Notes under the pieces: generated by a model
The model's database searches: none
What the model saw: only the letters and a program-made list of their open reading frames with translations
What the model was told of the DNA's origin: nothing
Made by a program: the position numbers and the translations under genes
Shown: one piece after another, positions 2,710-63,172 of the stretch
Position numbering within the stretch: position 1 is the first letter of the stretch
Layout: every line of letters begins with the position of its first letter
Assembly: GCA_014905635.1 (NCBI GenBank)
Contig: JABVCE010000004.1
Location: 496,001-560,000, forward strand
From: Scenedesmus sp. PABB004
Lineage: Eukaryota
DNA: 64,000 bases
Direction: 5' to 3'

Positions 2710-9244
<6,535 letters not shown>

Positions 9245-15852: not shown

Positions 15853-15883
<31 letters not shown>

Positions 15884-18334
15884 GGGGGGGCTGGCGCCTG
15901 GGCGGCGCGGGCGTGCGGCGCGCATGCACGCGCGTTCGGCACGCTGAGCTGGGCCGCCCGCCGCCGCGCCGCCGCGCAGGAGCAGCACGCGCTCGCTGAG
16001 AGCCTGGCCAACAGCAGGGAGACGCAGATCAAAGACCTGCAGGCGCGCACGCACACGCACACGCACGCGCACACGCGGGCGCACATGCACGCGGACACGC
16101 GGCGCGCAGCCCCGCCAGCTGCCGCGTGCGCCGCGCGCTCACGTGCCGGCGGCCGCCGCCGCCGCCGCCGTGCCGGCGCCACGCAGGTCCAGCTGCAGGG
16201 CCTGCAGACGAGCCTGGCCGACGCGGAGCGGCGCGTGTACGAGAGCGAGCTCATCCGCCGCAAGCTGCACAACACCATCCAGGCGCGGCGCGGCGTGGCG
16301 CCGGCCCTATCGCTGGGTGCGCGGCGCGCCCCCGGAACCGCCACCCCTGACCCGGCCCCCGCCCCCACGCCCGCCGGCGGCGGCGCGCAGGAGCTCAAGG
16401 GCAACATCCGCGTGTTTGCGCGCGTGCGCCCGTCCGGCCCGCCCGGCGAGGACGGCGGCGGCGGCGCGCCGGCGACAGAGTTCCCCAGCAGCGGTGTGCG
16501 GCCGCGCTGCCGCGGCCCGCGCCGCCCACCCAGGGGGCGCGCGCGGCGGGCCGGGGCGTCGGGGCGTCGGGGCGGGCGCCGTGCGTGCGTGCGGCCAGCC
16601 TGCCCACGCCCTGCGCGCGTGCGTGCGCCCGGCCGCGCAGGCGAGCTGCTGGGGCGGGGCATCGAGATCACGGTGCCCGGCAGCCTCACCGGCCAGGCGC
16701 CGTCGAAGCACAGCTTTGCGTTTGACAAGGTCTTTGGCCCCTCGGCGGACCAGGCGGCGGTGTTTGAGGAGATCAGCGAGCTCATCCAGTCGGCGCTCGA
16801 CGGCCACAAGGCGCGCCGCGCGCGCCGCGCTCAGCGCACGCCGCGTTCCGCCCGCGCCGCGCCGCCCGCGGCGGCCGACCCCGCCGCGCGCGCGCCGCCG
16901 CGGCCGCAGGTGTGCATCTTTGCGTACGGCCAGACGGGCAGCGGCAAGACGTACACCATGTTTGGCAACAGCGAGAGCCGCGGCATCATCCCCCGCGCGA
17001 TGGCCCAGGCGCGCGGCGCGGCTTGGTGCCCGCGCCCGCGCCGGCCCTGCCGCCGCCGCGCGCCCCCGCGCACACGCGCCGCCGCGCCGCGCCGCGCGTC
17101 GCCGGCCCGCCGCGCCAGGTGTTTGAGAGCAGCCGCGTGCTGGGCAAGCAGGGCTGGCAGTTCAGCATGGCCGCGAGCATGCTGGAGATCTACAATGAGG
17201 AGTACAAGGACCTGCTCGCACGCAAGAAGCTGCCCGACGGCAAGGCCCACAAGGTGCGGCGGCGCGCGGCCGCGGCGGCGCGCGGGGCAGCTCTCCGTGG
17301 CCGCGCGCGGGCTCGCGGGAGCGCGCGCGCGCGCGAGTGAGCGCGCCGGCGCCACGTGTGTGCGCAGGTGGTGCACGACGGCAACGGCGGCACGAGCGTG
17401 TCGGACCTCACGCTGGTGGAGGTCAACACTCCGCAGGCGCGCGCGCCGGCGCGGGCACCGGCGATCCAGGCGGCCAGCGCGGGCTGCCCAGCAGGGCGGC
17501 GCGCCCCCGCTGGCGGCGCAGCGGCCGGCGGCGCCGCGGCGCCGCGGCCGGCGCCTCTCACTGCGCGCGGTCTCGCCGCGCCGCCGCGCCGCGCCGCAGG
17601 ACGTGGAGGACCTGCTGGCGCGCGCGATGGAGAAGCGCAGCGTCGGCTGCACGCAGCTCAACGAGCAGTCGAGCCGCAGCCACGCCGTGTTCACGCTGCG
17701 CATCGAGGGCACCAACGACTCCTCCAAGCTCAAGGCGCGCGCCGCGGGCGGCCGGCGCGCGCCGCGCGCGGGCACAGCCCGCGCGCCCTCGCCCGCCCCT
17801 CCCGCACGCCCCTCGCCCGCGCCGCCGACTAAACCTGAGCCTGAACCCTCGCGCTCAACCCTGCTCAGGTCTCTGGCGTGCTGAATCTCATCGACCTCGC
17901 CGGCAGCGAGCGCGTCAAGGAGAGCGGCGCGGCGGGCGTGCGGCTCACCGAGGCAAAGGCCATCAACAAGAGCCTCTCCGCGCTCGGTGCGCGCGCCGCG
18001 CCGCGCCAGGGGGCAGCAGAACTAGAGGGGGCGGCGGCCACGTGCGGCGGCCCGGGCGCGCGGAGTGAGCGCCGGCCGCGCGCGCCGCCGCGGGCGCCCC
18101 GCAGGCGACGTGATCGTGTCGCTCGCCAACAAGGAGAGCCACGTGCCCTACCGCAACTCCAAGCTCACCTGGCTGCTGCAGCCCTGCCTGGGCGGGGACG
18201 CCAAGACGCTGATGTTTGTGAACATCGCGCCGTGCCCCGAGTTTGCGCCGGAGAGCCTCTGCAGCCTGCGCTTCGCGGCCAAGGTCAACGCGTGCGAGAT
18301 CGGCGTCGCGCGCCGCAACGTGCGCACGACCTAG
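13821..18334 (+). CDS. Kinesin-14 (C-terminal motor; KAR3/KIFC1/ATK1-type), about 18 exons
   Basis: Long N-terminal coiled coil followed by the kinesin-14 neck [23 protein letters not shown], then [23 protein letters not shown] (P-loop), [14 protein letters not shown] (switch I), LIDLAGSER (switch II), [34 protein letters not shown] and [12 protein letters not shown] at 18334. Confidence 0.97.
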
Positions 18335-18611
18335 GCGGCGCGACGTCGCTGCGCCAGGGGCGGCAGGGCGCAACAGCTCTGGAGACAGGGGCTTGACGGG
18401 CGGCGGGCGCGGGAGTTGGGCGGGTTGGTGCGACGGCGTTGTAGCGCGGCTTGTCAGGTCCTCCGCTCATTGGAGCAGTTGAGCTGGACGGCCCACAGCC
18501 ACCGCCCATCCTGCGCTGTCGTCGCCGCAGCCACCCGCCGCACCGCGCGCTGCTGCCACGCGCTGCGCCGCCGCCGGTCGCGCCCACACCGCACGCGCCC
18601 GGGGCGGTGGA

Positions 18612-27773: not shown

Positions 27774-28712
27774 CGCCGCCGCGCGCGCCCCCTGGCGCGC
27801 ACGCGCGCGTGCGCGCGCCGCCGCGGCCGGGCGGCAACGCGCACGACGTGTGCGCGTGCCTGTGCACTGGGGCGGGGGGAGCATGCAGCTGCACAGCGCT
27901 GCGAGTGGGCAAGCAGTCTTTTCTTTTCGGCGGCACCGTCGCATTGTCGCACGAGGCGGCGGCCATCTAATGCAGCATCAAATCAGGCGGCACGCGCATT
28001 CGATGTGCTGTGCATCCGTCCCAGGCTCTGGGCCGCGCACGCACGGCCGGGCTGCGGCCGCAGCAATTCCAACCGCGCGTGGCTTCTTCTGCCTCTCTTT
28101 TTTCTTGAGCTTGTGTGCAAAGCACTGCCCGGGCCCGCTTGAGCGCGAGCCACGCCGAAGCGCGCCGGTTGCGCCGCTGCGAGCGTGCTTCTGACTGCCG
28201 CGCCGCGCCAACGCGGTCCCCAAACGTGCCGCGCTCACAGCCCGGCGGCGTCGTGCGGCGGCGGCGCCGTCATGAACGCACCGCTCCTGCTGCTGGCGTT
28301 ACGCCAGCAGCTACATTGGTGCTGCGCGCGCTTTGCTTTGGGGCGGGGCGGGGCGGCCGGGCGGCGTCGCGGCGGCGTTGGCTGGGGCTGCGGGGAGTGG
28401 GCGGTGATGCCTCGGGAGGACAAGCGACGCCCGCGGGGCAAGCACACGTGATCTCTGTGCGGGAGGCGACGCGGGATGACGGCAACTCGCCCGCGGCGCC
28501 CGCCCGCCGCCCGCGCTGAACCCCGGCCGGCGCGGCGCATGGCACCCCGCACGCTGCAGCCCGGCCCCGCACAACGCCCCCCCCTGCGCTCGCCAGTCTC
28601 CCCGGCTTCTTCTCAGGAACCCCAGATCGCGCCCGCGCAGCAGCAGACGTCCGCAGCGGCAGCAGCAGCGGCAGCAGCAGCAGCGGCGGCCGCCGCCGGT
28701 GCCGGCGCCGCG

Positions 28713-29273
28713 ATGGCGGAGGAGGGCGAGGCGCCGCCCGCGCTGCCGGAGCCGGTGGTGGTGGAGTACGACCCCATCACGGGCGTGCCGGCGGAGTTCA
28801 ACGAGTTCCTGCCGCCCGAGAGCGCGGAGCACAAGCGATGGAAGGCCTCGCTCGCCGGCCCCGAGGCGCTGGCGGCGCTGACGCTCAAGGACAAGGACGG
28901 CAACGAGATCGAGAAGCAGCTGCCGGGCGGGAAGGTCAAGAAGAAGGCCAAGGCGGCCGTCGTGCTGGAGAGCCACACCCGCAACAAGAAGAAGTGCGTG
29001 ACCACTATCACCGGCCTCGAGTCCTTCGGCGTCAAGCTGGGCGACGCGGCCAAGCTGTTCGGCAAGAAGTTTGCGTGCGGCGCGAGCGTGGTGAAGAGCC
29101 CGCTCGGCACGGAGCAGATAGACATGCAGGGCGAGTTTGTCGACAAGCTCGCAGACCTGGTGCTCAAGACCTACGGCGCCAGCAACGGCATCGGCAAGCC
29201 CGACATCTACGTCGTGCAGGACAAGCGCAAGGTGCCGTTCTTCGACGCCGACAGCGACGGCTGCGACGAGTGA
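28713..29273 (+). CDS. DENR: Density-regulated protein / translation machinery-associated protein 22 (SUI1 domain), intronless
   Basis: KQLPGGKVKKK, RNKKKCVTTITGLESFGVKLGDAAKLFGKKFACGASVVK and EQIDMQGEF match DENR/TMA22. The N-terminal VEYDPITGVPAEFNEF aligns to the DENR N-domain. Confidence 0.95.
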   Translation: MAEEGEAPPALPEPVVVEYDPITGVPAEFNEFLPPESAEHKRWKASLAGPEALAALTLKDKDGNEIEKQLPGGKVKKKAKAAVVLESHTRNKKKCVTTITGLESFGVKLGDAAKLFGKKFACGASVVKSPLGTEQIDMQGEFVDKLADLVLKTYGASNGIGKPDIYVVQDKRKVPFFDADSDGCDE

Positions 29274-33900: not shown

Positions 33901-34030
33901 GCGGTCTCCGCTCATGAGCGGGCGGCGAGGGTTGCGGAGGCTGGCATGCGGGCTGCCCTGCCCTGCACAGGGCGTCTGACGCCCGCGCGTTGAGAGCGTA
34001 ACCGCCGCCGCCGAGGCCCGCGGCAGCAGC

Positions 34031-34035
34031 TTACA
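34031..34035 (-). promoter_or_regulatory. Putative chlorophyte polyadenylation signal TGTAA for the cupin gene
   Basis: ttaca at 34031 on the + strand (TGTAA on -), about 280 nt past the cupin stop codon, in a relatively AT-richer 3' region. Confidence 0.55.
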
Positions 34036-34309
34036 CTGACACACATACACCCGCTGTCGAATAGGGGGACAGACGCCTGCGGCCTGCGCGCGCATGCGGC
34101 GCGGAGCGGCCTGGCGAGAAAAGGGTGGCCGCAGCAGCAAAACCCGGCAGCCCGTTGGAGAGCGGGGAGGAGCGGTTGAGACTGATGGTACACGCGCGCG
34201 CGAATGACGCCAGCACGACAGCAAAAACCCAACATGTCCAGCAGCACAGCATGCAAAACTCGCGCGCACGCGGGCACAGACGGCGCCCGCGCGGCTTGCC
34301 CCTCGTGGG

Positions 34310-35778
34310 CTAGCCGCCGCAGCCCGCAGCGCCCACGAGGCGCGCCAGCTCGGCGGGGTCCATCGCGCCCGCCACCGCGCCGCTGCGCACAAACTCGGCA
34401 AAGCCCTCGTTGGGCAGCATCATCTGCGGCGCAGGCGCGGCGGGAGCGTTGGCGGCGGTGGCGGGGCGGTGCGGGCGACCGGGCGCGGGCGCGCCGCGCG
34501 GCGGCGCGCGCCTGGAAGCAGAAGAGCCGGCCGGGGCCGGGGTTGTCGATGCCGTGCTCCACGCCCGGCGGGAAGATCGCGGCGTCGCCGGGGCCGAGGC
34601 GCGCGCGCGACGCGCCGCCCGGGCCGTGCACGGCCTCGCCCGTGCCGGCGAGAACAAAGAAGAGCTCGTGGGCGGAGCCGTGCACGTGGAGCGGCGTGAC
34701 GTGCCCCGGCTCGAAGCACTCGACGCCGATCGAGAGCGACACCGCGGGCGCGGCGTGGGGGCCGAAGAGCAGCGCGAGGCGGTTGGTCTGGTGCGGCAGC
34801 GTGAACGCGGCGACCTCGGAGAGGCTGCGCTTCAGCGCCGACAGGCGCTGCACCAGCGGGCACGCCGGCGCCGCGGCGGCGGCCGCGCCCGCCGCGGCGC
34901 CCGCCTGAGCCGCCGGCGGCGGCGCCGCGCCGGGCTGCCGCGGCGGCGCGCCCGGCTGCTGCTGCGGCTGCGGCTGCCCCGCCGCGCCGGCGAGCAGCTC
35001 GCACGCGCGCTGCTGGTCGACCACGCCGGCCACCGCGGTGCGGTGCCGCGCCCAGGGCAGCGCGGCCGCGACCGCCTCGCAGTGGCCTGCGTGGTGCGTG
35101 TCGAGCTCGCCCGAGAGCAGCTCGCTCGGCAGCAGCAGCTGCAGCATCACGAGCTGCTCCTGCTCCGCGCCCGCCGCCGCCCGCGGGCGCAGTGGCCAGG
35201 GGAAGGCGTGGCGCCACCAGGCGCCGCCGCCCGGGCCGCCGGCCGCGAGCAGCTCGGGCGGCGGCGGCCCCGCGGCGAAGGCCACGTCGCCGTGCGGCGC
35301 GAGCACGCTGTCGCCCGGGCCCACGCGCTGCGCGGCGCCGGTGCTGTCGCAGAAATAGCCGCTGCCAGAGAGGCAGTAGGCAAGCTCGACCAGCCCGGGC
35401 GCCGCGCCGCCCGCGGCGCGGGGCGGCGCGGCCCCGCTGGGCAGGGGGCGGCGCTGGTGCAGCGACACGGCGAACGGCAGCGCCGCCGCGTCCAGCAGCG
35501 GGATCACGGTGTGGTGGGCGTCCAGCTCCAGCAGCGGCCGGCCCTCCAGGGGCGCGACGATGCCCGCCGGCGCGGCGGCAGCGGCGGCAGCGGCGGCAGC
35601 AGCGGCGGCGCGCCTGCGGGAGCAGTTGCGGGTCCACGAGCGCTCGGCGCGGGCCCTGCACCGCACGTTCCATGCGCCGAGATGCTCACCTGGGCGTCGT
35701 GCCGGCGGCCCTCGAGCGCGGGGGGCTGGCGGAGGGCTGGCCGCGCCTGCATGGGCGCGCCCCCGCGCACGCCCGCAT
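34310..35778 (-). CDS. Bicupin (RmlC-like) protein, probably plastid-targeted; C-terminal cupin has an intact metal site
   Basis: ATG 35778 with a phase-consistent intron. Degenerate cupin 1 (VELAYCLSGSG...VGPGDSVLAP). Cupin 2 reads TNRLALLF...ECFEPGHVTPLHVHGSAHELFFVLAGTG...GDAAIFPPGVEHGIDN. Last exon MMLPNEGFAEFVRSG...*. Confidence 0.85.
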
Positions 35779-36078
35779 CGTGGCACGGAGCTAAGATCGG
35801 AGCTGTCTGGAGTCGTGGGCGGGGCGTGGACGCAGGCGCGGTGGCTGTGCGGGGCCGTGGCGCGCGCGGAGCAGCACTTGTGAAGTGCGCGAGCTCGGCC
35901 AGGGTGTCACACGGTGTGAGAGCCCTGAGAGGTCGCCGGAGTGCGCGGTGGCGGCGTGGGGCAGCGGCCACAGACCGCCGCGGCTCTGCGCCGCCGCGCT
36001 GCAGCGCGGGCAGCGCTGCGCGGCGGCAGCCAAGGCGTCGCGGGAGCCGCGGCGACGCCCACTCGCCCCTTCTGACAG

Positions 36079-36876
36079 ATGACGGCCGCCGACCCCGGCG
36101 TCACGGCACTGCTGCGCGAGCTGTTCGACGACAGCGACGACTCCGAGCAGCTGCCGCCGCCGCCGCCGATCCCGGGCCTCGCGCACGTGCCGCCGCCGCC
36201 GCCGATCCCGGGCCTCGCGCACGTGCCGGCATTCCTCGCCGCCGCGGCGCACGCGGAGCTGCTCGCGGCGGTGCGCGCCTGGCTGGGCGCGGGGGGAAGC
36301 AACCAGGGCATGGTGTTTGGCGCCGCCAACATGCCCCGGTGGCTCGCCCGCCTCGCGGCGTCGCTGCCGCTCCCTGCGCACTGGCCGGCGGCGCTCGCGG
36401 GGCGCGCGCCGGCGTTTGACACGGCGATCCTCAACAGCTACGCGCCCGGCGACGGCATCGCGCCGCACGTCGACCTGCTGCGCTTTGCGGACGGCCTGGC
36501 CGTGCTGAGCCTCGGCGGCCCCGCGGTCATGGAGTTTGCAGAGGCGCAGCAGGCGCCGGCAGCGGCGGCGCAGCAGGCGCAGCCAGGGCAGGGGCAGCCA
36601 GGGCAGCAGGGGTGGCCCGTTCCGCGGCGGCATCAGCTGCTGCTGCGAGGCGGCGACCTGTTGCTCCTCGCCGGGGAGGCGCGGTACCGGTGGACCCACG
36701 GCATCGCGTGCGTGGCCGAGGAGCGGCTCTGGTGCGCCGCCTGCCGAGCGGCGGCTGCGGCGGGGGCCGCGCCCGCCCGCGGCTGCGACGCGTGCGCGCG
36801 CGTGGTGCGCGGGCAGCGCTGCTCCGTCACGCTGCGGCGGCTGGACGCCGAGCGCGCGACGCTGGACGTGCAGTGA
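36079..36876 (+). CDS. AlkB-family 2-oxoglutarate/Fe(II) dioxygenase (ALKBH6/8-like), intronless
   Basis: IPGLAHVPAFL, FDTAILNSYAPGDGIAPHVD (HxD), LSLG, LLLLAGEARYRWTHGI (distal His) and RCSVTLR (RxxxxxR). Confidence 0.92.
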   Translation: MTAADPGVTALLRELFDDSDDSEQLPPPPPIPGLAHVPPPPPIPGLAHVPAFLAAAAHAELLAAVRAWLGAGGSNQGMVFGAANMPRWLARLAASLPLPAHWPAALAGRAPAFDTAILNSYAPGDGIAPHVDLLRFADGLAVLSLGGPAVMEFAEAQQAPAAAAQQAQPGQGQPGQQGWPVPRRHQLLLRGGDLLLLAGEARYRWTHGIACVAEERLWCAACRAAAAAGAAPARGCDACARVVRGQRCSVTLRRLDAERATLDVQ

Positions 36877-37994: not shown

Positions 37995-38413
37995 CGCCTG
38001 CCGCTGGTGTGAAGCCCCCCGCCCTGCACACACGCACGCACACACACACGAACGCCCGCAGCCAGGCCGTCGCACGAGAATAGCGCGCAGCAGCAGACGC
38101 GTCACGCCGCGCGATCGGGACCTGCCGCAGGCGTTCTAGGGCGACTCTCTAGACATCCCCGGGTGCGCACGCGCGGCGCCAGCGTGCCGGGGCCACCGCG
38201 CGCGCCGGGAGGGGACAGCGCGCCCGCGCAGGCCCGCCCCGCGCGCCGGACGCACCACAGCTGCCCATGCGCGGCGCCGTGACCTCGCGCGCGGCCCGAC
38301 GCCGGCCCTGGGCAGCGTGGCGGGGCGCGCGGGGCTGCGGTGGGGCCGGCGCCGCGGCGCCACCTCACTCGCCGCCGCGCCGCTGTCGCCGCCTCACTCC
38401 CGCAGGCGCCACC

Positions 38414-41350
38414 ATGGTCGCCGCCGGCGCCCCTCCGCCCCCGCCGGCGCCCACCGGCGGCGCCGCGCTCGCTGCGGCGACGCGGCGCAGCCTCAGCCTC
38501 ACCGACCTGCCGGAGCCGCGCGGCGGCGCGCTCGCGCCGCGCGCCGGCGCGCTGCGGCCCCCGCCGTCGCCGCCGTCGTTGGAGCCTGAGGACGCGGCGG
38601 GCGGCCTGCCGCTGCCCGAGCCCTACAAGATCAAGATGGTCGAGTCCATCACGCTGCGCCCGCGCGCCGAGCGCCAGGTGCTGCTCGCGGCGGCCGGATA
38701 TAACGTCTTCGGCCTGCGCAGCGACGAGGTGTGCTGCCCGGCGCGCCGCCGCTGCCGCCGCTGCCGTCCGCGGGGGCCCCTCGCGAGCGACGCCGCCGCC
38801 GCCGCTGCCGTCCACGGGGGTCCCTCGCGAGCGACGCCGCCGCCGCCGCTGCCGTCTGCGGGGTCCCTCACGAGCGACGCCGCCGCCGCCGCGCGCCGCT
38901 GCCAGGTGTTTATCGATCTGCTCACCGATAGCGGAACCAGTGCCATGTCCGATGCGCAGTGGGCGGGCATGGTGGGCACGCCCCAGGCGTACGCCGGTGC
39001 GGCGGCGCGCGCGCGCGCCCGTCCCATCTGGCTGCCGCGCTGCCGCGCGCCGCCCCGCCCCGCCCCGGGACGCCCCGTGACGCGGCACTGCCCCGCCGCG
39101 CCGCGCCCCCGCCGCACGCCCCGCAGGCGCGTCGAGCTTTTACACGCTCGAGTCTGTCGTGCGGGACCTCTTTGGCTTTGCGCACGTCCTCCCCGTGCAC
39201 CAGGGCCGCGCCGCGGAGAACGTTCTGTTCTCCTGCCTCGTGTCGCCCGACTCGGGGGCGGTCGTCCCCAACAACTGGCACTTTGACACCACCGAGGTGC
39301 GTGCGTGCGTGTGCGTGTGCGGGCGGCGCGCGCGCGGCGACGGCGGCGCGGGCGGGCGGGCGCGCGCAGCCGGCGTTGGCCGCCGACCGGCGCTGGCGCT
39401 GCCGCCGCGCAGGCCAACGTGCTGCGCTGCGGGGGGCAGCCGGTCAACCTGACCGTGCCGGAGGCCTTTGACACCGCGCTCGCGGCGCCGTTCAAGGTGC
39501 GGCCGCGCACGCGCCGCGCGCCGCGCGCCGCGTGCCATCCGGCTGGCAGCGCGCGTGCCGGGCCCGCCGCCGCCGACGCGCGCGCCCGCCCGCCCTTGCC
39601 CGCACGCGCGCGGGGCGCAGGGCAACATGGACATCGCGGCGCTGGAGGCGCTGCTGTCTGACAAGGGCGCGGGCAGCGTCCCCGTCATCATGCTCACCGC
39701 CACCAACAACAGCGCGGGCGGGCAGCCGGTGTCAATGGACAACGTGCGCCAGGTGCGTCGTCGCGCGCCCGCGCCCGCGCCCGCGGCCCGCGCGGGCGCG
39801 CACGTCACGCGCGTGCGCCGCGGCTCCAGCGGGGGCAGCGGGCGGCGGCGCCGACGGCGCGCGCGCGGCCGCCGCAGGTGTCGGCGATCGCGCGCCGCGC
39901 CGGCATCCCGCTGTTCATTGACGCGGCGCGCTTCGCGGAGAATGCCTGGTTCATTCAGGTGCGGCTGGGCCCTTGGCGCGCGCGTGCGGCTGGCTCTGGG
40001 CGCGCGCGCTTGTGCGCGCGTGGAGGAGGGGATCGGGGCGGCGCGCCCGCGCGGCGTGCGCCGCCAGCAGGGGCGCACGCACGCCGGCCGCTCAGGCCGC
40101 GCCCGCGCCGCCCGCCGCCCGCGCGCCGCGCAGCGCTGGGAGCCGGGCTACGAGGGCCGCCCGCTGCGTGAGATTGTGCGTGAGTTCTTCTCCTACGCAG
40201 ACGGCTGCACGTTCAGGCGCGCGCCGCGGCGGCGGCGTGCTGCGCGCCGCGCGCCGCGTGCGGGCCGTGGGCTGCGTCGAAGGCGCGCCGGCGCCGCGCC
40301 GCGACGCCGAGCCGTGACACCGTGCCGCGCCGCGCCGCGCGCAGCGGCAAGAAGGAGGCGCTGGCCAACGTCGGCGGCCTGCTCTGCTGCAACGACGCCG
40401 CGCTGCACGAGACCCTGCGCAACCTGTCCATCGTCGTCGAGGGGTGCGGCGCGCGGCACGCGCGCGGGCCCCGCGGCCTCGAGCGCGGCCGTCGCCCGGG
40501 CCCCTCCCCCAAAACCCTGAACACTGCCGACCTCAAACCTCGCCCGCCCGCCCCTCTGAACCCCGCCCCGCCGCCAGCTACCCCACGTACGGCGGCCTCG
40601 CCTGCCGCGACCTCATGGCCATGGCCCGCGGCCTCATGGAGGCCACGGAGCAGCGCTACCAGGACCACCGCCACGCGTGCGCGCCCGCCGCCCGCGCCGC
40701 GCCGCGGCTGCCGGCGCGGCTGCCGCTGCCCGCGCCGCCCGCGCCGCGCCGCGCCGCCCGCCGACCCCGCCGACGCCTGCTCCGCGCCGCTCTGCGCCGC
40801 GCCGCGCAGCCAGATCGAGCTCCTGGCCGGCCTGCTGCGCGAGCGGGGCGTGCCGATCGTGGAGCCGCCCGGGGGCCACGCCGTGTACATTGACGCCGCG
40901 CGCTTCCTGCCGCACATACCCGCGCACCAGTTCCCCGCGCAGGCGCTGACCGCGGCGGTCTACGCCGCCTCTGGCGTGCGCGGCGTGGAGATCGGCAGCA
41001 GCTGCTTCGGGCACACCAACCCGGAGACCGGCGAGTTTGTGCCGTCGAGGCTGGAGCTGATGCGCCTCGCGCTGCCGCGCCGGTGCGCGCGCGCAGCGCG
41101 CCCTGCAAGCGCGCCGCACGCCGCCCGCGCCGCGCACGCGCCCGCCCACGCCGGCCCGCCGTCGCCGCCGCGCGTGCCGCCGCCGCGCAGCGTCTACACG
41201 AGCGACCACCTGCGCTACGTCGCGGCCGCGATCGTGGCTCTGCACGGCCAGCGCGACAGCATCGTCGGGCTGCGCCGCGTCTACGCGACCAAGCTCCTCT
41301 CCCACTTCACTGCGCAGTTCCAGCCGCTCGACGACGCGCCCGCCGCCTGA
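38414..41350 (+). CDS. tnaA: Tryptophanase (tryptophan indole-lyase; PLP beta-eliminating lyase), about 11 exons
   Basis: [38 protein letters not shown] (catalytic Tyr), [46 protein letters not shown] (PLP Lys), [40 protein letters not shown] and HFTA. FDTT, EIG and HFT are the tryptophanase rather than tyrosine phenol-lyase (FTTT, ERG, FFT) residues. Confidence 0.93.
38758..38892. repeat. 44-bp minisatellite x3 in tryptophanase intron 1
   Basis: Unit ctgccgtcc(g/a)cggggg(c/t)ccctcgcgagcgacgccgccgccgccg starts at 38761, 38805 and 38849. Confidence 0.85.
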
Positions 41351-42523
41351 GCGCGGCGGCAAGCCGAGCGGCGGCGCCGCCGAGCGGACCCATGGTCTAG
41401 ACAGCTGCACTTGCAATGTACATCAGGCACAGAGTGAGGGGGGATGCGAGCGGGCGGTCAGCCTCGCGTTTTTGAGTTGCTGCGGGGGCGATTGGCTGCG
41501 TTGTTGTTGTTCCAACCTTGAACAGGCGCCGGGCGGCGCGGGGAGGGCGGGCAGGAGGGGCGCACTCGCGACGGGCTGCACCGGAGGGGACCGGGGCGCG
41601 TGCAGCAGGCGGCAATCAACTCATCCCTTGGGCAGGCGGGTGGCATTGCGAATAAGTGCTCGGGCTGCGCGGAGGGGTTTGGGAGGGACGTGCGCAGCTG
41701 GTGGGCGGCCCGGCGGCGCGCGCACGCGCGTGCCCGCCGCGAGGCGGGGCGCGCCGCGCTGGCGCCGCCGGCCGCGACGGTGCGGGTGTGCCGTCGTAAC
41801 CACACCCGGACGAACAACGACCCGCTCGTCACACGCGACGCACGAAGAACACACGCGCTCACCGCGCGGCGAGCTCCGCGTTGGTGGGGATGCGCGTTGC
41901 GCCAGGGAAGCCGTGCAGGCGCACCAGCAGCGCGGCGCCGCCTGCAAGGGCGGCACGCCGCCGCGCGTCGGCGCTGCGGCAGGCCGCTGCCGCACGCCGC
42001 TGCCGCAGGGCGCGCGGCAGCGCACATGCGATGCCCAGCAGCCCGCCGGCGGCGAGGCCGCGTCGGTGCGCCTCAGCCCAGGCGACGCTGTCGGCCAGCG
42101 CCTCGCCAGCGGCGCGCCGCCACGCGCTGCCGCTGCTCGCGCTGCCAGGCTCGCTGCTGCTGCTCTCGTCCCGGGCAGGCATCTGCTCAGGTTCGGCGGT
42201 GGCTGATCGTTGGCGACGACTGCAGTGGTGCCACAGCGAGGGCCGGTCGCGCTGCTCTTGGCAAAAATCCGGCCGGCGGCCAGGGGTGTCGTCGTCGTGA
42301 AAACTCCCTCAAGCCCTGACTGCCTCCAAAGCCACCCCGCTGACCCCGTGAGCTGCTGGGCGACATACCAAGCTCACGAGAAAGTCACGGCCGCAGGCTG
42401 GGGAGCTGTCGACCTGCGAGCGCGGCGCCGGCAGCATCAACCGCTTTTGGCGTGGGCGGCGCGCGGCGCCGCCGCCGGGCGTCGAACAAGCCAGTGCGCG
42501 CCACGGCGGCTCAGACAGATCAC

Positions 42524-44678
42524 ATGAAGGCGTCCAGAGTGCCTGCCGCGAGCTGGGGGGCCGCTGGTGCGGCGCTCTTCCTGCTGCTGGCAGGCGGCGC
42601 GAGCGCCAGCGGCACTGCGGCGCCCTGCACCGGGCGCTGGATGGACGTCCTCAGCGGCGTTGCATCGGGCGCGACGGGCGAGCTGAGCCTGACTGACGCC
42701 CAGATGGGCATCGTGGCGACCGCGCTCGCGGCCGCGCGGCACGCGGGGCGGCGGCCGAGGCTGGTCGTCTTTGGCGAGTGCACGCGAGCCGGCGCGCGCA
42801 GGGCCGGCGCGGGAGGTGGCGGGACCCGGGGCGAGGGGGGAGGGTCAGGGACCCGACCCGCGGAGCGCTGCGCCGCGCGACCCGGCCCCCGCCGCGGCGC
42901 CGCGCGCAGGGGCCGGCTATGACAGCGCGCTCTGGGCGGCGATCAACTGCGACGGCGACACTACCATCATCGAGAACGACGCGGAGCGCGCGGCGGCGAC
43001 GCGCGCCGCGGCGCCGGGGCTGGACATCGAGCTCGTGTCGTACCGCAGCGACAGCCGGCGCGCGGCCGAGTTTTACGCCGCGCCCTGGGCCGTCGAGCTG
43101 CCACACAGCGTGGCGGGGTCGTGCCCCGACGCCGTGCTCATCGACTCGCCCGCCGCGTGAGCCGCCGCGGGCGCGCCGGCTCGCGGGGGCGGCGCTGCGT
43201 GCTGTGCCGCTGGCGCTCCGCGCCTCCCCAACTCAGCCACCCCACTCACGTAAAACACGCGCGCGCGCGCGCAGCTATGACCCGGCCCATGGCTTCCCCG
43301 GGCGCTTTGAGCCGAGCTACGCCGCGATCGCGCTGGCGGAGCGCTGCGTGTCGGCGGGGCGCGCCACCGCGGTCGCGCTCTTCCTGCACGACGCGCAGCG
43401 GCCCGAGGAGCGCGAGGCGATCGCGCGCCTCTTCGCGCCGCACCCGCTGGTCACCAGCCTCGGCGTCCTGCACGGTGGCAGCGGCTCGCTCGCGGCGTTC
43501 GTGCTCAGCACGAGCGGTGCGGCGGCGGCGGCGCCAGCGGCGCCCGCCGGCGCGCACCCCGAGGCGGTCGCGGCCGGCGGGCAGCTCGCGGCGGCGCCGG
43601 GCGGCGCGCGCGGGCGGTGGCTCGACGCGGTCGACGCCGCGCACAGCGGGCCGTCCGGGCGGCCCCAGATCAGCGTCGCGCAGCTCGCCCTCATCGCGAG
43701 CAGCCTGAAGTGGGCGGGCGCGCAGGACGGCGGGCGGCCGACGCGGCTCCTGGTGTGGGGCGTGGGCCACGACAGCGTGGCCCATGCCGCCATCAATGCC
43801 GGCGGGGCCACGCTGTTCCTCGAGGACAACGCCGAGTGGCTGGCCAAGATCTCGGGCGCCTACCCGGCGCTGTCGATCGAGCAGGTGGCCTACCGCGCGA
43901 CGGTCGCGGGCGCGGCCGCGTTCTTCGCGGCGCCCTGGCTCATGCACCTCCCCGCCGCCGCGGCGGAGGGGTGCTGGGACACCATCCTCATCGACGCGCC
44001 CGCGGGGTGCGCCCGCCCGCACGCCGCGGCGGCGGCGGCACCGGCGCCGCCGCACGCGCGCGCCGCGCCAGCATGCAGCCCGCACCCTCCCACGCCCTCC
44101 CCCTCCCCAGACAAGAACACCCACGCCCGCACGCGCGCGTCGCCGCGCCTGCCCGCAGGTACCGCCCCGAGCACCCGGGCCGCGTCGAGGCGAGCTACGC
44201 GGCGCTGCGCCTTGCCGAGGCATGCGTCGCCAGCGGGCGGGCGGCGGCCGTCACGCTCTTCCTGCACGACGTCGGCCGGCCGCTCGAGCGCGAGATCATG
44301 GCGCGCCTCTTTGACGCGCACCCGCTCGTGCGCCCGCTCGGCGTCGTGCAGGGCCACGGCACGCGCTGGCTCGCGGGCTATGTGATGTCCGCCGCGCACG
44401 GCGGCGGCGGCGCGGCGCACGGCGCCGCCCCGCCGCGCCAGCCCGCGCCCACGGCGGCGGCGCGCCACGACGGCGACGGGTGGAGCGACCGCGCCGCGCC
44501 CGGCGCCGCGCCGGGCGGCGCGGGCTGCGGCGCGCTGCCGCACCCGAGCCTGACCACCTTTCTGGCGTTTGCGCTCGGCGTCCTCGCCGGCCTCACCATG
44601 CGCGCGCCTGCGAGCCGCGTCTGGGCGGCGCGGTCGCCGACGGCGCGGGGCGTGGGCTACGCGCCGTTGCGAGGCTGA
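42524..44678 (+). CDS. Protein with two tandem DUF579 (GXM/IRX15/AGM polysaccharide O-methyltransferase-like) domains, N-terminal signal/anchor and C-terminal TM helix
   Basis: Domain 1: RLVVFG|AGYDSALWAAINCDGDTTIIEND...PDAVLIDSPA|SYDP...PGRFEPSYAA...LFLHDAQRPEERE. Domain 2: RLLVWGVGHDS...INAGGATLFLEDNAEW...WDTILIDAPAG|YRPEHPGRVEASYAA...LFLHDVGRPLERE. Both match the GXM FGLGHDS/GGRTxFLEED/WDxIxVDAP.GY.....PGR/VFVHD motifs. TM segment LTTFLAFALGVLAGL. Confidence 0.88.
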
Positions 44679-61524: not shown

Positions 61525-62897
61525 TCACGCGCGCGCCGCCGCCCAGCGCGCGCGGCCCTCGCCCGCGAGGCCGAGCGTGAGCGCGAAGAGCTCCGCGACC
61601 GGCTCGGGCGCGTCGAGCACCGCGATCGCGCTCATGCGCTTCTTGCTGCCGAAGACCTGGCCGATGCGCTTGCGCGAGAGCGCAAACACGACCGGCACGG
61701 GCGCCGCCGCGCGCGCGCCGGCGGCCACGATCTCGGCGACGCGGCCGTCGAGCACGCGGTCGGGCTTGCCGGCCTTGTTCAGCTGAATGTCTGGCGCGAG
61801 CAGCACCGCGCGCGCGCGGCCGGTCTTGATGGCCTTGCACGCCTCGCGCAGGCCGCACACGTAGAGGCGCCGCGCCGCGGGGCGCGGGCTGTCGCCGCCG
61901 TACTGCAGCGCGCGGAGCTTGTTGAGCAGCAGGCTCGCGGCGGCGTTGAGGCCGGCGCAGATGTCCTGGTGCACAAACGCGCCGTGCACGACCGGGCCCT
62001 CCTCCTCGTCGTCCGACAGCGTGAGCTGGCTCGACGCGTAACCCGCGCTGCCGGCGCTGCTGACCGTGCTCGCGTAGCTGCTCGCGAGGCTGCCCGCGCG
62101 CAGCGGCGTGCTGCCGCCGCTGCTGCAGCCGCCGCCGCGCGGCGGCGGCGGCGGCGCCGCGCCGCCGCGCAGGCTGAGCGCCGCGAGCGCGAGCTCGAGC
62201 TCGCCCGACGCCTGCGGCTGCGCCAGGCCGTAGGGGCCCGCCAGCTGCAGGTGCGGCGCGTCGTAGGCCCCCGCCGGGCCCAGCTGCCCACCAAACGCGC
62301 CGCCGTGCAGGTGCTGGTGCTGGTGCTGCCCCGGCCAGCACTGCTGCTGGCCAAACGCGGCCAGGCGCGCCGCCTCGGGCGCGGCGGCGTGCTGCTGCGG
62401 CCACGCGGGCTGCTGCGGCCCGCCCGACGCCGCGAGCACGTAGGCGGCCAGCGCGCTCTCGCTCGCCGCGGCGGCCGCCATCGCCTGCTCGAGCAGCACC
62501 TGCTGCACCAGCGACAGCCCGCCGGGCGACAGGGCCGCCGCCGCGGCGAGCTGCTGGGGCGTGGGCAGGCTCAGCGTGGGCAGGCCGGCCGGCTCGAGGC
62601 CCAGGCCGGGCGGCGGCGCCTGCGGGCGGCGGGGCGGGCGGGCGGGCGGCGCGCGTGTGAGGGGGGGCCGCCAGCCGCGCGCATCCTCCGCTGCCGCAAA
62701 AGAGTGCCGCAGCTGCGGGCGTTCCAGGGCGGCCAGGCCGGCCCCGGAACGCCGCGCGCCAGGGGCCGCGGCGCGGTGTGCGGTGCGCGGAGGGCGGCTG
62801 GGCGGCGTCCCATGTTCCGAGGAACGGCGGCCGACCGCGCGGCGCGTCGCACCTGCCCGTGCGAGCCGACGTAGGGCATGAACATTAGCTCCTGCAT
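61525..62897 (-). CDS. SECIS-binding protein 2 (SBP2)-like L7Ae RNA-binding protein, divergent, two exons
   Basis: MQELMFMPYVGSHGQ|APPP (phase consistent). FVHQDICAGLNAAASLLLNKLRALQ...RRLYVCGLREACKAIKTGRARAVLLAPDI...LD...VPVVFALSRKRIGQVFG...SAIAVLD aligns with the SBP2 YCxQ...LLxELxxFQ...RRLVxGLREV.K...PxVFALxRKxLG pattern. Confidence 0.85.
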
Positions 62898-63172
62898 CGC
62901 GTCAGCAGGCCTTCAGGACGCGACCGCGGGCGAGGACGCGTGCCTGTGTCGCGGTTGCCCCGAGCGCCGCGTTCTGGCTCCGCGGCGAGCGGTGGGAGGT
63001 CCACGAGCTCCTCCGACGTCGTGGGGATGCGAGGGTGGGCCGCCTGGTCCGCTGGGCCGCCGGCGAGGGCTGGGCGCGGGCAGGGGTCGCTGCACGCGCG
63101 CGGGGTCGCAGGGCTGCTGCGCGAGAGCGTCGATGCAGGAACGGGGCGTTGAGGCTCTGGCGGTCGCGCCGG

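What the first reader, a model, noticed from the sequence alone, without database searches (positions are those of the whole stretch)
38414..41350. Bacterial-type tryptophanase fully domesticated (about 10 introns) in a green-algal nuclear genome
Seen: a complete TnaA-like protein split by ~10 host-style GT/GC-AG introns, so it is not bacterial contamination. It keeps the PLP Lys (SGKK), the catalytic Tyr (AYAG) and the substrate-binding Arg (MRLAL). Established: tryptophanase is a mainly bacterial enzyme that makes indole, and FDTT/EIG/HFT distinguish it from tyrosine phenol-lyase. Inference: old horizontal transfer that could let the alga release indole (an inter-kingdom signal) or use Trp/Cys as an N source. 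KKD>KKE and LRHF>LSHF could alter specificity, and the ~60-aa N-terminal extension may be a targeting peptide.
Basis: partly seen in the sequence, partly recalled or inferred. Interest (0 to 1): 0.8.

Follow-up and report, generated by a model that had tools for sequence, protein, structure and literature searches.

The report
Archaeal-type tryptophanase gene in green alga
A green alga carries an intron-filled nuclear gene for a tryptophanase-like enzyme that most likely came from sediment archaea, but the gene is already annotated and already listed as a likely transfer in related algae.

Summary
Window 38414-41350 (+) holds an 11-exon, 10-intron gene (nine GT-AG introns, one GC-AG). Its 528-aa product is letter-for-letter the public record "tnaA [Scenedesmus sp. 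PABB004]". It is a PLP beta-eliminating lyase of the tryptophanase/tyrosine phenol-lyase family. All catalytic residues I checked are present, and the three specificity positions read as in tryptophanase (D189, I446, H514). It misses the NCBIfam equivalog cut-offs for both enzymes.

Neighbouring genes (kinesin, eIF1/SUI1) and shared intron style show nuclear algal DNA, not contamination. Orthologues occur in other Sphaeropleales: Scenedesmus NREL 46B-D3, Chromochloris and Monoraphidium.

The "bacterial-type" label is wrong. The algal clade (100/100) sits in a clade whose named members are archaea plus one Microgenomates bacterium, and ML nests it among Bathyarchaeia sequences (65-68% identity). 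AU tests of that nesting are only borderline (p 0.07 and 0.049). KKE and S/G-H-F are features of the whole clade, not algal changes. Nothing supports a targeting role for the N-terminal extension.

A 2026 Scenedesmaceae paper already lists tryptophanase-annotated orthologues among putative HGT genes, with expression data. I rate it a new member of a known kind, of moderate interest.

The parts
38414..38728 (+). Exon 1 (ATG at 38414 in the context caccATGg). It encodes residues 1-105, which cover the ~66-aa Ala/Pro/Gly-rich N-terminal extension and the start of the conserved core (PEPYKIKM).
   Evidence: The extension is absent from all 8 prokaryotic rows of alignment A1. pLDDT is below 50 for residues 1-82.
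38729..38905 (+). Intron 1 (177 nt, GT-AG, phase 0). It contains a 44-nt tandem repeat of 3.4 copies at 38743-38892.
38906..38996 (+). Exon 2 ([10 protein letters not shown] ... AYA). The catalytic Tyr134 codon is 38990-38992. It is followed by intron 2 (38997-39126, GT-AG, phase 1).
39127..39296 (+). Exon 3. It holds HQGR (Q161, R163) and FDTT, with the Asp189 codon at 39285-39287. It is followed by intron 3 (39297-39412, GT-AG, phase 0).
39413..39496 (+). Exon 4, followed by intron 4 (39497-39620, GT-AG, phase 0).
39621..39752 (+). Exon 5 (GNMD ... [11 protein letters not shown]; the Asn250 codon is 39708-39710), followed by intron 5 (39753-39877, GT-AG, phase 0).
39878..39958 (+). Exon 6 ([10 protein letters not shown]; the Asp279 codon is 39920-39922 and the Arg282 codon is 39929-39931), followed by intron 6 (39959-40133, GT-AG, phase 0).
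40134..40216 (+). Exon 7, which ends inside the Ser319 codon. It is followed by intron 7 (40217-40344), the only GC-AG intron (phase 2).
   Evidence: Only the GC donor restores the conserved S-G-K-K.
40345..40443 (+). Exon 8. It holds GKKE, with Lys321 at 40349-40351, the PLP-binding Lys322 at 40352-40354 and Glu323 at 40355-40357. It is followed by intron 8 (40444-40577, GT-AG, phase 2).
40578..40676 (+). Exon 9 (YPTYGGLA ...), followed by intron 9 (40677-40809, GT-AG, phase 2).
   Evidence: The ORF fragments P0002, P0003 and P0033 from other algal-like contigs read into the same boundary (S|QIELL), as seen.
40810..41082 (+). Exon 10, the largest core exon. It holds VEIGS (the Ile446 codon is 40991-40993) and MRLAL (the Arg470 codon is 41063-41065). 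It is followed by intron 10 (41083-41190, GT-AG, phase 2).
41191..41350 (+). Exon 11. It holds LLSHFTA (the His514 codon is 41303-41305) and the TGA stop at 41348-41350.

Best explanation
This is a functional nuclear gene of the green alga Scenedesmus sp. PABB004. It encodes a PLP-dependent beta-eliminating lyase of the tryptophanase/tyrosine phenol-lyase family. An ancestor of the Sphaeropleales acquired it by horizontal transfer from a prokaryote, most probably a Bathyarchaeia-like archaeon rather than a bacterium. It has since been fully domesticated, with 10 spliceosomal introns, host codon bias and an added N-terminal extension.

Most likely mechanism (inferred from conserved residues, not assayed): Lys322 carries PLP as a Schiff base. 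Arg470 binds the substrate carboxylate. Tyr134 protonates the leaving group. Asp189, Ile446 and His514 form the tryptophanase-type side-chain pocket. The enzyme would then split L-tryptophan into indole, pyruvate and ammonium, with the usual side activities on Cys, Ser and S-alkyl-cysteines.

Its physiological role in the alga is not known. Candidates are tryptophan/cysteine catabolism during mixotrophic growth and release of indole.
For: Gene reality and host:
- The clean 11-exon model is identical to the public record 'tnaA [Scenedesmus sp. PABB004]', which lies on a contig of 1,787,601 bp.
- GC3 is 0.94. Introns have 81-92% GC in a window of 75-83% GC.
- The neighbouring kinesin gene has an intron of the same style (17987-18104, GTGCGC...GCAG), and splicing it restores the motif KSLSALG|DVIV.
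- Neighbours carry kinesin, SUI1, L7Ae, protein-kinase and IRX15/GXM domains.
- PMC12571836 (passages) gives this genome as 39.8 Mb with 78.5% GC.

Family:
- PF01212 at E 9.9e-74.
- NCBIfam NF009709 'tryptophanase' subfamily at 618.8 bits against a cut-off of 285.
- Solved structures match at E 1e-137 to 1e-108.

Residues:
- E. coli TnaA Y74, D137, N198, R230, K269, K270, V394, E395, I396, R419, H463 and F464 are all identical in the algal protein.
- The tyrosine phenol-lyase positions T124, R381 and F448 align to D189, I446 and H514.

Distribution:
- Orthologues at 70-79% identity occur in Scenedesmus sp. NREL 46B-D3, Chromochloris zofingiensis (Cz05g03040) and Monoraphidium neglectum (partial), plus six unnamed fragments or proteins.

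Origin:
- The best prokaryotic hits are 61-68% identical, and all named ones among them are Bathyarchaeota/Bathyarchaeia. Thermoplasmatota reach about 57% and bacteria at most 58%.
- Among the 80 named GTDB loci kept, the top one is a Bathyarchaeia MAG at 63%. Two are Thermoplasmata/Thermoplasmatota (55-57%) and 77 are bacteria (49-57%).
- In the careful ML tree (69 rows, 459 columns) the algae form a 100/100 clade sister to P0012 (96/88). They lie inside clades of 17 rows (100/98), 34 rows (100/99, all named members Bathyarchaeia) and 50 rows (100/100, archaea plus one Microgenomates).
- 90%-identity clusters inside the 17-row clade hold NCBI 'Candidatus Bathyarchaeota archaeon' records.

Expression in relatives:
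- Supplementary Data 3g of PMC13315243 lists tryptophanase-annotated genes of Tetradesmus lagerheimii and strain NREL 46B-D3 among putative HGT-acquired genes, with differential expression calls.
- P0005 is an uninterrupted 558-aa orthologue on a 2,842-bp contig. I infer that this is a transcript.
Against: - No activity has been measured for any member of this clade.
- The protein misses the equivalog cut-offs of TnaA (461.2 < 825.8 and 509.8 < 750) and of TPL (520.3 < 720.7).
- Overall it is closer to solved TPLs (461 bits) than to solved tryptophanases (425 and about 368 bits).
- The nesting inside Bathyarchaeia is not firmly proven. Holding the 30 non-algal rows of the 34-row clade together costs 22.5 lnL (p-AU 0.0705). 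Holding all 46 non-algal rows of the archaeal-type clade together costs 38.7 lnL (p-AU 0.0489). Both groups were named after the tree was seen.
- P0001 has a deviant amino-acid make-up, which flags.
- Only 4 of the 401 sampled genomes of that archaeal class hold the close type (63-64%).
- I have no transcript evidence for PABB004 itself.
- In T. lagerheimii the orthologue is 'down' under low nitrogen, which does not fit induction for nitrogen scavenging.
- The horizontally acquired tryptophanase of Blastocystis is reported to prefer the reverse reaction (PMC8448343, abstract).
Confidence: 0.6

Rival explanations
1. The origin and fold are as above, but the main reaction differs. It could be a cysteine or S-substituted-cysteine/serine beta-lyase, a lyase for a modified tryptophan, or an enzyme that works mainly in reverse, making tryptophan from scavenged indole, pyruvate and ammonium.
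For: The protein falls below both the TnaA and the TPL equivalog cut-offs, so it belongs to a third, uncharacterised clade. Blastocystis BhTnaA is reported to prefer indole-to-tryptophan (PMC8448343, abstract). That TnaA-family enzymes are promiscuous toward Cys, Ser and S-alkyl-Cys is established knowledge that I recall, not a result of a call here.
Against: All three side-chain-pocket positions are tryptophanase-type in all 47 rows of the clade examined. The same holds in 270 of the 329 family rows surveyed.
Confidence: 0.22
2. The donor was a bacterium. The Bathyarchaeia and the algae would then both be recipients, or the archaeal MAG labels would be binning errors.
For: The AU tests do not firmly reject placing the algae outside the Bathyarchaeia-labelled rows (p 0.0705; p 0.0489). 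A Microgenomates sequence sits at the base of the clade. The nearest sisters are unnamed. The family is overwhelmingly bacterial.
Against: Every named sequence within the 34-row clade is Bathyarchaeota/Bathyarchaeia, from several independent records. Four genomes of that class carry the close type on contigs, one at position 345,658-347,034. Named bacterial loci reach only 49-57% identity, against 63-68% for the archaeal clade.
Confidence: 0.2
3. It is a tyrosine phenol-lyase.
For: The best solved-structure matches and the higher equivalog score are to TPL (461 bits; TIGR02618 520.3 against TIGR02617 461.2).
Against: The TPL positions T124, R381 and F448 are D, I and H here. The roles of these positions in phenol binding are recalled from the literature. 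The TIGR02618 score is below its cut-off of 720.7. Only 7 of the 329 family rows carry T-R-F, and none of them is in this clade.
Confidence: 0.04
4. It is prokaryotic contamination or an assembly artefact, or an ancient eukaryotic gene inherited vertically.
For: The high similarity to prokaryotic proteins.
Against: The gene has ten spliceosomal introns that interrupt conserved motifs. The intron style matches the neighbouring kinesin gene. Flanking genes are eukaryotic and the scaffold is 1.79 Mb. The named eukaryotic orthologues listed are only Sphaeropleales, and the clade nests among prokaryotes.
Confidence: 0.03

Closest known systems
Uncultured Bathyarchaeia/Bathyarchaeota 'tryptophanase' proteins (for example P0012, P0007, P0048, L002; 458-462 aa)
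   Same: Identity is 61-68% over the whole core. They share the same clade features: KKE after the PLP lysine, S or G before the His of HF, FDTT and VE[I/L]G.
   Different: They are intronless and lack the N- and C-terminal extensions. They come from anaerobic sediment-type archaeal MAGs. None has been characterised biochemically, as far as my searches found (one search listed 2 papers holding both terms, and neither title or abstract is about the enzyme).
Escherichia coli tryptophanase TnaA (b3708; solved structures 2oqx, 2c44)
   Same: The fold family and all catalytic and specificity residues I checked are the same: Y74, D137, N198, R230, K269/K270, I396, R419 and H463/F464.
   Different: Identity is only 41% over 460 aligned positions. 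The score is below the TIGR02617 equivalog cut-off. D271 is E and R462 is S. There is no tnaC leader or tnaB permease operon context (one search shows the E. coli operon).
Tyrosine phenol-lyase (solved structures 1c7g, 2ez1, 1tpl, 9j3u)
   Same: These are the best-scoring solved relatives (E about 4e-137, 461 bits). The PLP lysine, Asp214-equivalent and Arg217-equivalent are the same.
   Different: T124, R381 and F448 of TPL are D189, I446 and H514 here. The score is below the TIGR02618 cut-off.
Horizontally acquired tryptophanases of other eukaryotes (Blastocystis BhTnaA; Trichomonas, Entamoeba, fungi, cnidarians and others surveyed in PMC8537960)
   Same: A prokaryote-derived tnaA fixed in a eukaryotic nuclear genome (PMC8448343, abstract; PMC8537960, passages).
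   Different: Those cases are described as of bacterial origin and mostly come from anaerobic protists, fungi or animals. The survey PMC8537960 has no occurrence of Scenedesmus, Monoraphidium or Chlorophyt-. The present gene groups with archaea.
Putative HGT-acquired tryptophanase-annotated genes of Scenedesmaceae in PMC13315243 (Tetla_jg1173.t1, Scesp_NREL_6256911.1)
   Same: They belong to the same algal family and carry the same Swiss-Prot annotation class (TNAA). They are listed among putative HGT-acquired genes with expression changes (Supplementary Data 3g). They are probably orthologues.
   Different: The main text of that paper never mentions tryptophan (0 occurrences). I did not see a donor assignment for this family. 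The individual trees are on Figshare, which I could not read.

Membership tests
Pfam PF01212 Beta-eliminating lyase (fold-type I PLP enzymes) | Match to the family profile above the gathering score | tested here: met
   248.7 bits against a cut-off of 27, E 9.9e-74, residues 109-488 covering profile positions 1-287 of 288.
Tryptophanase/TPL subfamily (NCBIfam NF009709, PRK13238) | Score above the curated cut-off over the full length | tested here: met
   618.8 bits against a cut-off of 285, residues 67-522 covering profile positions 7-461 of 463.
Tryptophanase TnaA equivalog (TIGR02617; NF053783) | Score above the equivalog cut-off | tested here: not met
   461.2 against 825.8, and 509.8 against 750. 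The archaeal relative P0007 also fails (526.8 and 549.9), so the whole clade lies outside these bacterial equivalogs.
Tryptophanase (functional class, EC 4.1.99.1) | Tryptophanase-type residues at the three positions that differ from TPL (E. coli D137, I396, H463; their roles are recalled from the literature) | tested here: met
   D189, I446 and H514. D-[I/L]-H is found in all 47 rows of the clade examined.
Tryptophanase (functional class, EC 4.1.99.1) | PLP lysine, catalytic Tyr and carboxylate-binding Arg | tested here: met
   K322 (with K321), Y134, R470, and also N250, R282 and D279.
Tryptophanase (functional class, EC 4.1.99.1) | Indole formation from L-tryptophan | not testable with these tools
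   This needs an enzyme assay. My literature searches found no assay of an algal or Bathyarchaeia member.
Tyrosine phenol-lyase equivalog (TIGR02618) | Score above the equivalog cut-off, and T124/R381/F448-type residues | tested here: not met
   520.3 against 720.7. The aligned residues are D, I and H instead of T, R and F.
Horizontally acquired prokaryotic gene domesticated in a eukaryote | Spliceosomal introns and eukaryotic flanks; patchy eukaryotic distribution; nested among prokaryotes in a tree | tested here: met
   There are 10 introns, and kinesin and SUI1 genes lie nearby. The only named eukaryotes among the hits are Sphaeropleales. The algal clade lies inside a 100/100 prokaryotic clade. 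Caveat: eukaryotic genomes could not be searched directly.
Archaeal (Bathyarchaeia) donor | Algal clade nested within Bathyarchaeia sequences with alternatives rejected | tested here: inconclusive
   ML support along the nesting path is 96/88 to 100/99. The AU tests give p 0.0705 and p 0.0489. The nearest sisters are unnamed.

The most novel reading that the evidence does not exclude
An anaerobic sediment archaeon of the Bathyarchaeia gave a tryptophanase gene to the common ancestor of the Sphaeropleales green algae. The gene was kept for hundreds of millions of years and lets these algae make or consume indole. That would make a photosynthetic eukaryote a player in indole signalling with its bacterial partners. 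The conserved short R-x-x-S motif in the added N-terminal tail could hint at host-type regulation.
Probability: 0.35. Interest if true: 0.65.

Novelty: new member of a known kind. Interest (0 to 1): 0.4.

Why it matters
Prokaryote-derived tryptophanases in eukaryotes are already known from gut protists, fungi and some animals. A green-algal one is therefore an extension and not a new principle. This gene is already annotated, and its orthologues are already flagged as HGT candidates in a supplement.

Three points would matter if confirmed:
1. The donor looks archaeal. Archaeon-to-alga transfers of metabolic genes are seldom documented.
2. The gene is retained across Sphaeropleales that are used in wastewater and biofuel work. 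There, indole, a bacterial signal and growth modulator, or tryptophan/cysteine breakdown could shape alga-bacteria consortia.
3. The whole archaeal-type clade has never been assayed. The algal protein is therefore a convenient entry point to its biochemistry.

Tried and rejected
- RNA evidence for this locus: no RNA holder was listed, so no reads could be laid.
- Whole genome of the window: none is held.
- First Pfam call on single exons: it failed on a frame error of mine. I replaced it by scanning P0001, which is identical to the spliced product.
80 loci were kept, the best at 63%, and none was algal-like. It gave no help on the taxonomy of P0012.
- 'Shorter' protein search for hidden algal fragments: the best 120 listed were prokaryotic fragments, and no new alga appeared.
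- Viral vector idea: 5 viral contigs hold relatives, at 41-48% identity only. None is close, so I found nothing pointing to a viral route.
- ESM Atlas: it returned only family-level bacterial clusters and was uninformative.
- Earlier findings of this scan: none.
- AlphaFold2 model from a 12-row alignment: mean pLDDT was 67.5. I used it only to note the low confidence of residues 1-82 and ran no fold search, because sequence homology to solved structures is already decisive.
- Targeting-peptide idea: no predictor was available. The extension of P0001 is Pro/Ala/Gly-rich (16 P, 15 A and 8 G of 66 residues). Those of P0005, P0018 and P0337 are quite different. The question stays open.
- Tree bookkeeping:
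  - The overview FastTree used 329 rows. These were all stored proteins of 430-700 aa up to P0335, plus P0337, plus ORFs of L001-L081.
  - The careful tree used 69 rows that I hand-picked from them, plus L083-L086.
  - L088 and L093 were dropped because my motif filter found no ORF.
  - The P0018 model contains mis-spliced stretches but was kept.
Full report
**1. The observation**

The window is extremely GC-rich, at 75-83% in 2-kb windows. I read 38000-41800 and translated three frames. From this I built a model of 11 exons and 10 introns.

- The exons are 38414-38728, 38906-38996, 39127-39296, 39413-39496, 39621-39752, 39878-39958, 40134-40216, 40345-40443, 40578-40676, 40810-41082 and 41191-41350.
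- The CDS is 1587 nt and encodes 528 aa followed by TGA.
- The introns are 108-177 nt long and have 81-92% GC. All end in CAG.
- Nine introns begin with GT (mostly GTGCG). Intron 7 begins with GC, and only this donor restores the conserved S-G-K-K.
- Intron phases are 0, 1, 0, 0, 0, 0, 2, 2, 2, 2.
- GC3 of the CDS is 0.94.

The spliced protein is identical to database protein P0001. NCBI names that record 'tnaA [Scenedesmus sp. PABB004]', and it lies on a contig of 1,787,601 bp.

**2. It is algal nuclear DNA**

I scanned 143 stop-to-stop ORFs of the window against Pfam. The hits were:

| Domain | Window position | Strand |
|---|---|---|
| Kinesin motor, in pieces | 15557-18393 | + |
| SUI1/eIF1 | 28452-29270 | + |
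| Cupin | 33915-35906 | - |
| 2OG-Fe(II) oxygenase | 36076-36873 | + |
| IRX15/GXM | 42693-44382 | + |
| L7Ae | 61528-62901 | - |
| Protein kinase | within 7068-9173 | + |
| cNMP-binding | within 4713-5237 | + |

In the kinesin gene, an intron at 17987-18104 (GTGCGC...GCAG, 118 nt) joins KSLSALG to DVIVSLANK. It has the same style as the introns of the lyase gene. Window-wide, GGTGCG (87 on the + strand, 73 on the - strand) far outnumbers GGTGAG (13 and 23) and GGTAAG (1 and 2).

PMC12571836 (passages) lists Scenedesmus sp. PABB004 with 39.8 Mb, 78.5% GC and 7,092 genes. This fits the window.

**3. Family and residues**

- Pfam PF01212 matches at E 9.9e-74.
- NCBIfam places the protein in the 'tryptophanase' subfamily NF009709 (618.8 bits, cut-off 285).
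- It falls below every equivalog cut-off: TPL TIGR02618 520.3 < 720.7, TnaA NF053783 509.8 < 750, and TnaA TIGR02617 461.2 < 825.8. The archaeal relative P0007 behaves the same way.
- Among solved structures, tyrosine phenol-lyases score best (461 bits). Tryptophanases follow at 425 bits (1ax4) and about 368 bits (the E. coli entries).

The residues point the other way from the overall scores. Aligned to E. coli TnaA taken from NC_000913.3, the following are all identical:

| E. coli TnaA | Algal protein |
|---|---|
| Y74 | Y134 |
| D137 | D189 |
| N198 | N250 |
| R230 | R282 |
| K269/K270 | K321/K322 |
| V394-E395-I396 | V444-E445-I446 |
| R419 | R470 |
| H463/F464 | H514/F515 |

In the printed TPL alignments, TPL T124, R381 and F448 face D189, I446 and H514. 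That these three positions set indole versus phenol specificity is recalled from the enzymology literature and was not tested here.

I surveyed 329 family rows.

- D-[I/L/V/M]-H occurs in 270 rows and T-R-F in 7.
- All 47 rows examined of the clade that holds the algae have Y, D, KK, I/L, R and H.
E after the two lysines occurs in 42 of 47 rows. The residue before the His is G (35), S (8), P (3) or T (1), and never R.

**4. Relatives**

Algal orthologues found:

- P0005 (558 aa, unnamed, 79% identity).
- P0018 (Scenedesmus sp. NREL 46B-D3, 73%).
- P0337 (Chromochloris zofingiensis Cz05g03040). It was hidden in a cluster whose representative is a 165-aa fragment.
- P0004 (Monoraphidium neglectum, partial).
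- The unnamed fragments P0002, P0003, P0006, P0033 and P0041.

All named ones are Sphaeropleales. No other named eukaryote appeared among the 120 best rows.

Evidence on intron positions in the relatives is indirect.

- The fragments P0002, P0003 and P0033 read S|QIELL at their start. This is what the 3' splice site of intron 9 gives in frame in the window.
- P0018 and P0004 look mis-spliced exactly at the positions of introns 8 and 9.
- P0018 and P0033 carry extra sequence after FPAQ, inside what is exon 10 here.
- Four fragments (P0002, P0003, P0006 and P0041) run through the position of intron 10.

I infer that some intron positions are shared and others differ. This fits a long residence in the lineage.

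The next-best proteins are 462-aa prokaryotic ones at 61-68% identity. Every named one is Bathyarchaeota/Bathyarchaeia. Thermoplasmatota and Diapherotrites follow at 57-59%, and bacteria reach at most 58%.

In the species-representative genomes, the 80 best loci start with a Bathyarchaeia MAG (63%). Two are Thermoplasmata/Thermoplasmatota (55-57%), and the other 77 are bacterial MAGs at 49-57%.

I sampled 401 genomes of the class that holds that MAG.

- 50 have a family member at E <= 1e-50.
- Only 4 carry the close type, at 63-64% identity.
- The next best is 46%.

**5. Phylogeny**

A FastTree of 329 rows puts the four algal proteins together (support 100). They lie deep inside a group whose named members are all Bathyarchaeia, and that group lies inside an archaeal group.

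I then ran a careful IQ-TREE analysis on 69 hand-picked rows and 459 columns, with LG+C20+F+G4 by PMSF and E. coli TnaA as outgroup. The path from the algae outward is:

| Clade | Support |
|---|---|
| Algae | 100/100 |
| Algae + P0012 | 96/88 |
| 17-row clade | 100/98 |
| 34-row clade (all named members Bathyarchaeia) | 100/99 |
| 48-row clade | 96/86 |
| 50-row clade (archaea plus one Microgenomates) | 100/100 |

Labels inside the inner clades come from several records.

- P0031 is labelled Bathyarchaeales.
- P0015 and P0016 (Bathyarchaeota) are 99.7-100% identical to P0017.
- P0020 is 98% identical to P0027.
- The 90%-identity clusters of P0043 and P0038 hold NCBI 'Candidatus Bathyarchaeota archaeon' records.

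Three cautions apply.

- The AU tests are borderline. Forcing the 30 non-algal rows of the 34-row clade together costs 22.5 lnL (p 0.0705). Forcing all 46 non-algal rows of the 50-row clade together costs 38.7 lnL (p 0.0489). I named both groups after seeing the tree.
- P0001 has a deviant composition, which flags.
- The direct sisters are unnamed.

Membership of the algal genes in this archaeal-type clade is solid. Nesting within Bathyarchaeia is likely but not proven.

**6. Expression and earlier literature**

No RNA run was listed for this locus.

[quoted passage not shown] I read passages of the main text, and sheets and rows of supplementary file 5. Supplementary Data 3g is titled as expression changes of putative HGT-acquired genes. 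It lists two genes annotated TNAA_CALS4 tryptophanase:

- Tetla_jg1173.t1: 'down' in 0.1N versus 3N medium, with no change in glucose/dark.
- Scesp_NREL_6256911.1: 'down' in cold, with no change in heat.

The main text has no occurrence of 'tryptophan'. I saw no donor call for this family, because the trees are on Figshare.

The tnaA survey PMC8537960 (passages) covers 21 eukaryotic species and 16 fungi but has no occurrence of Scenedesmus, Monoraphidium or Chlorophyt-. Searches for tryptophanase with 'green alga', with microalga plus indole, and with Bathyarchaeota listed no paper whose title or abstract is about an algal or Bathyarchaeia enzyme. The search with the six genus names required only two of six terms, and its 20 listed rows all had 0 occurrences of 'tryptophanase'.

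**7. N-terminal extension**

Residues 1-66 are Pro/Ala/Gly-rich (16 P, 15 A, 8 G). They are absent from all 8 prokaryotic rows of A1. All four algal proteins have an extension, but the sequences are different. The exception is a short motif ([12 protein letters not shown] here, NRSLSWDLPEP and NRTLSWDLPQ in two Scenedesmaceae), and Chromochloris lacks it. The AlphaFold2 model gives pLDDT below 50 for residues 1-82. Nothing here shows a transit peptide. A regulatory or disordered tail is equally possible.

**8. Verdict**

The gene is real, intact and algal. It belongs to the tryptophanase/TPL family with tryptophanase-type pocket residues, so a tryptophan indole-lyase is the most likely activity. 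This is inferred and not shown.

It entered the Sphaeropleales lineage by horizontal transfer, most likely from a Bathyarchaeia-like archaeon. This corrects the 'bacterial-type' reading.

The gene is annotated, eukaryotic HGT tryptophanases are a known kind, and Scenedesmaceae orthologues are already flagged as HGT candidates. I therefore rate it a new member of a known kind, with moderate interest. The interest rests on the archaeal donor and the untested possibility of algal indole metabolism.

Noticed in passing
P0186-P0193, P0195, P0196, P0202; P0021; G261:C17 6323-9043 and G219:C202 642-3347: Many prokaryotes, including genomes of the Bathyarchaeia class and a 'Deltaproteobacteria' MAG, encode proteins of about 850-930 aa that match the query in two stretches. 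These are tandem double tryptophanase-like proteins in one open frame. They top the 50%-representative search only because both halves score.
   Followed up: no
window 38743-38892 (intron 1): A 44-nt unit is repeated 3.4 times at 92% match inside intron 1. Other introns hold shorter GC-rich repeats, for example a 47-nt unit in 2.9 copies at 40663-40807 in intron 9.
   Followed up: partly
window 33915-35906 (-) and 36076-36873 (+): Directly upstream of the lyase gene lie ORFs with a Cupin_2 domain (E 1.7e-17) and a 2OG-Fe(II) oxygenase domain (E 8.6e-12). I did not examine whether these are also acquired genes or are functionally linked.
   Followed up: no
window 17987-18104: The kinesin gene has an intron with the same GTGCGC...GCAG style and a similar length (118 nt) as the lyase introns. 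Splicing it restores the kinesin motif [16 protein letters not shown].
   Followed up: yes
P0018 (Scenedesmus sp. NREL 46B-D3) and P0004 (Monoraphidium neglectum): The public gene models look mis-spliced. P0018 replaces [15 protein letters not shown] with unrelated residues and carries a 14-aa insert after FPAQ. P0004 lacks four residues at the position of intron 9.
   Followed up: partly
window 38414-41350, exons versus introns: The introns (81-92% GC) are more GC-rich than the conserved exons (65-74% GC), while GC3 is 0.94. Composition is driven to the extreme wherever the protein sequence allows it.
   Followed up: partly
P0001 residues 22-35; P0005 and P0018 N-termini (alignment A1, columns 40-55): A short conserved motif with R-x-x-S ([23 protein letters not shown]) sits in the otherwise divergent N-terminal extension of the Scenedesmaceae proteins. 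A phospho-regulatory site is a speculation that I did not test.
   Followed up: no
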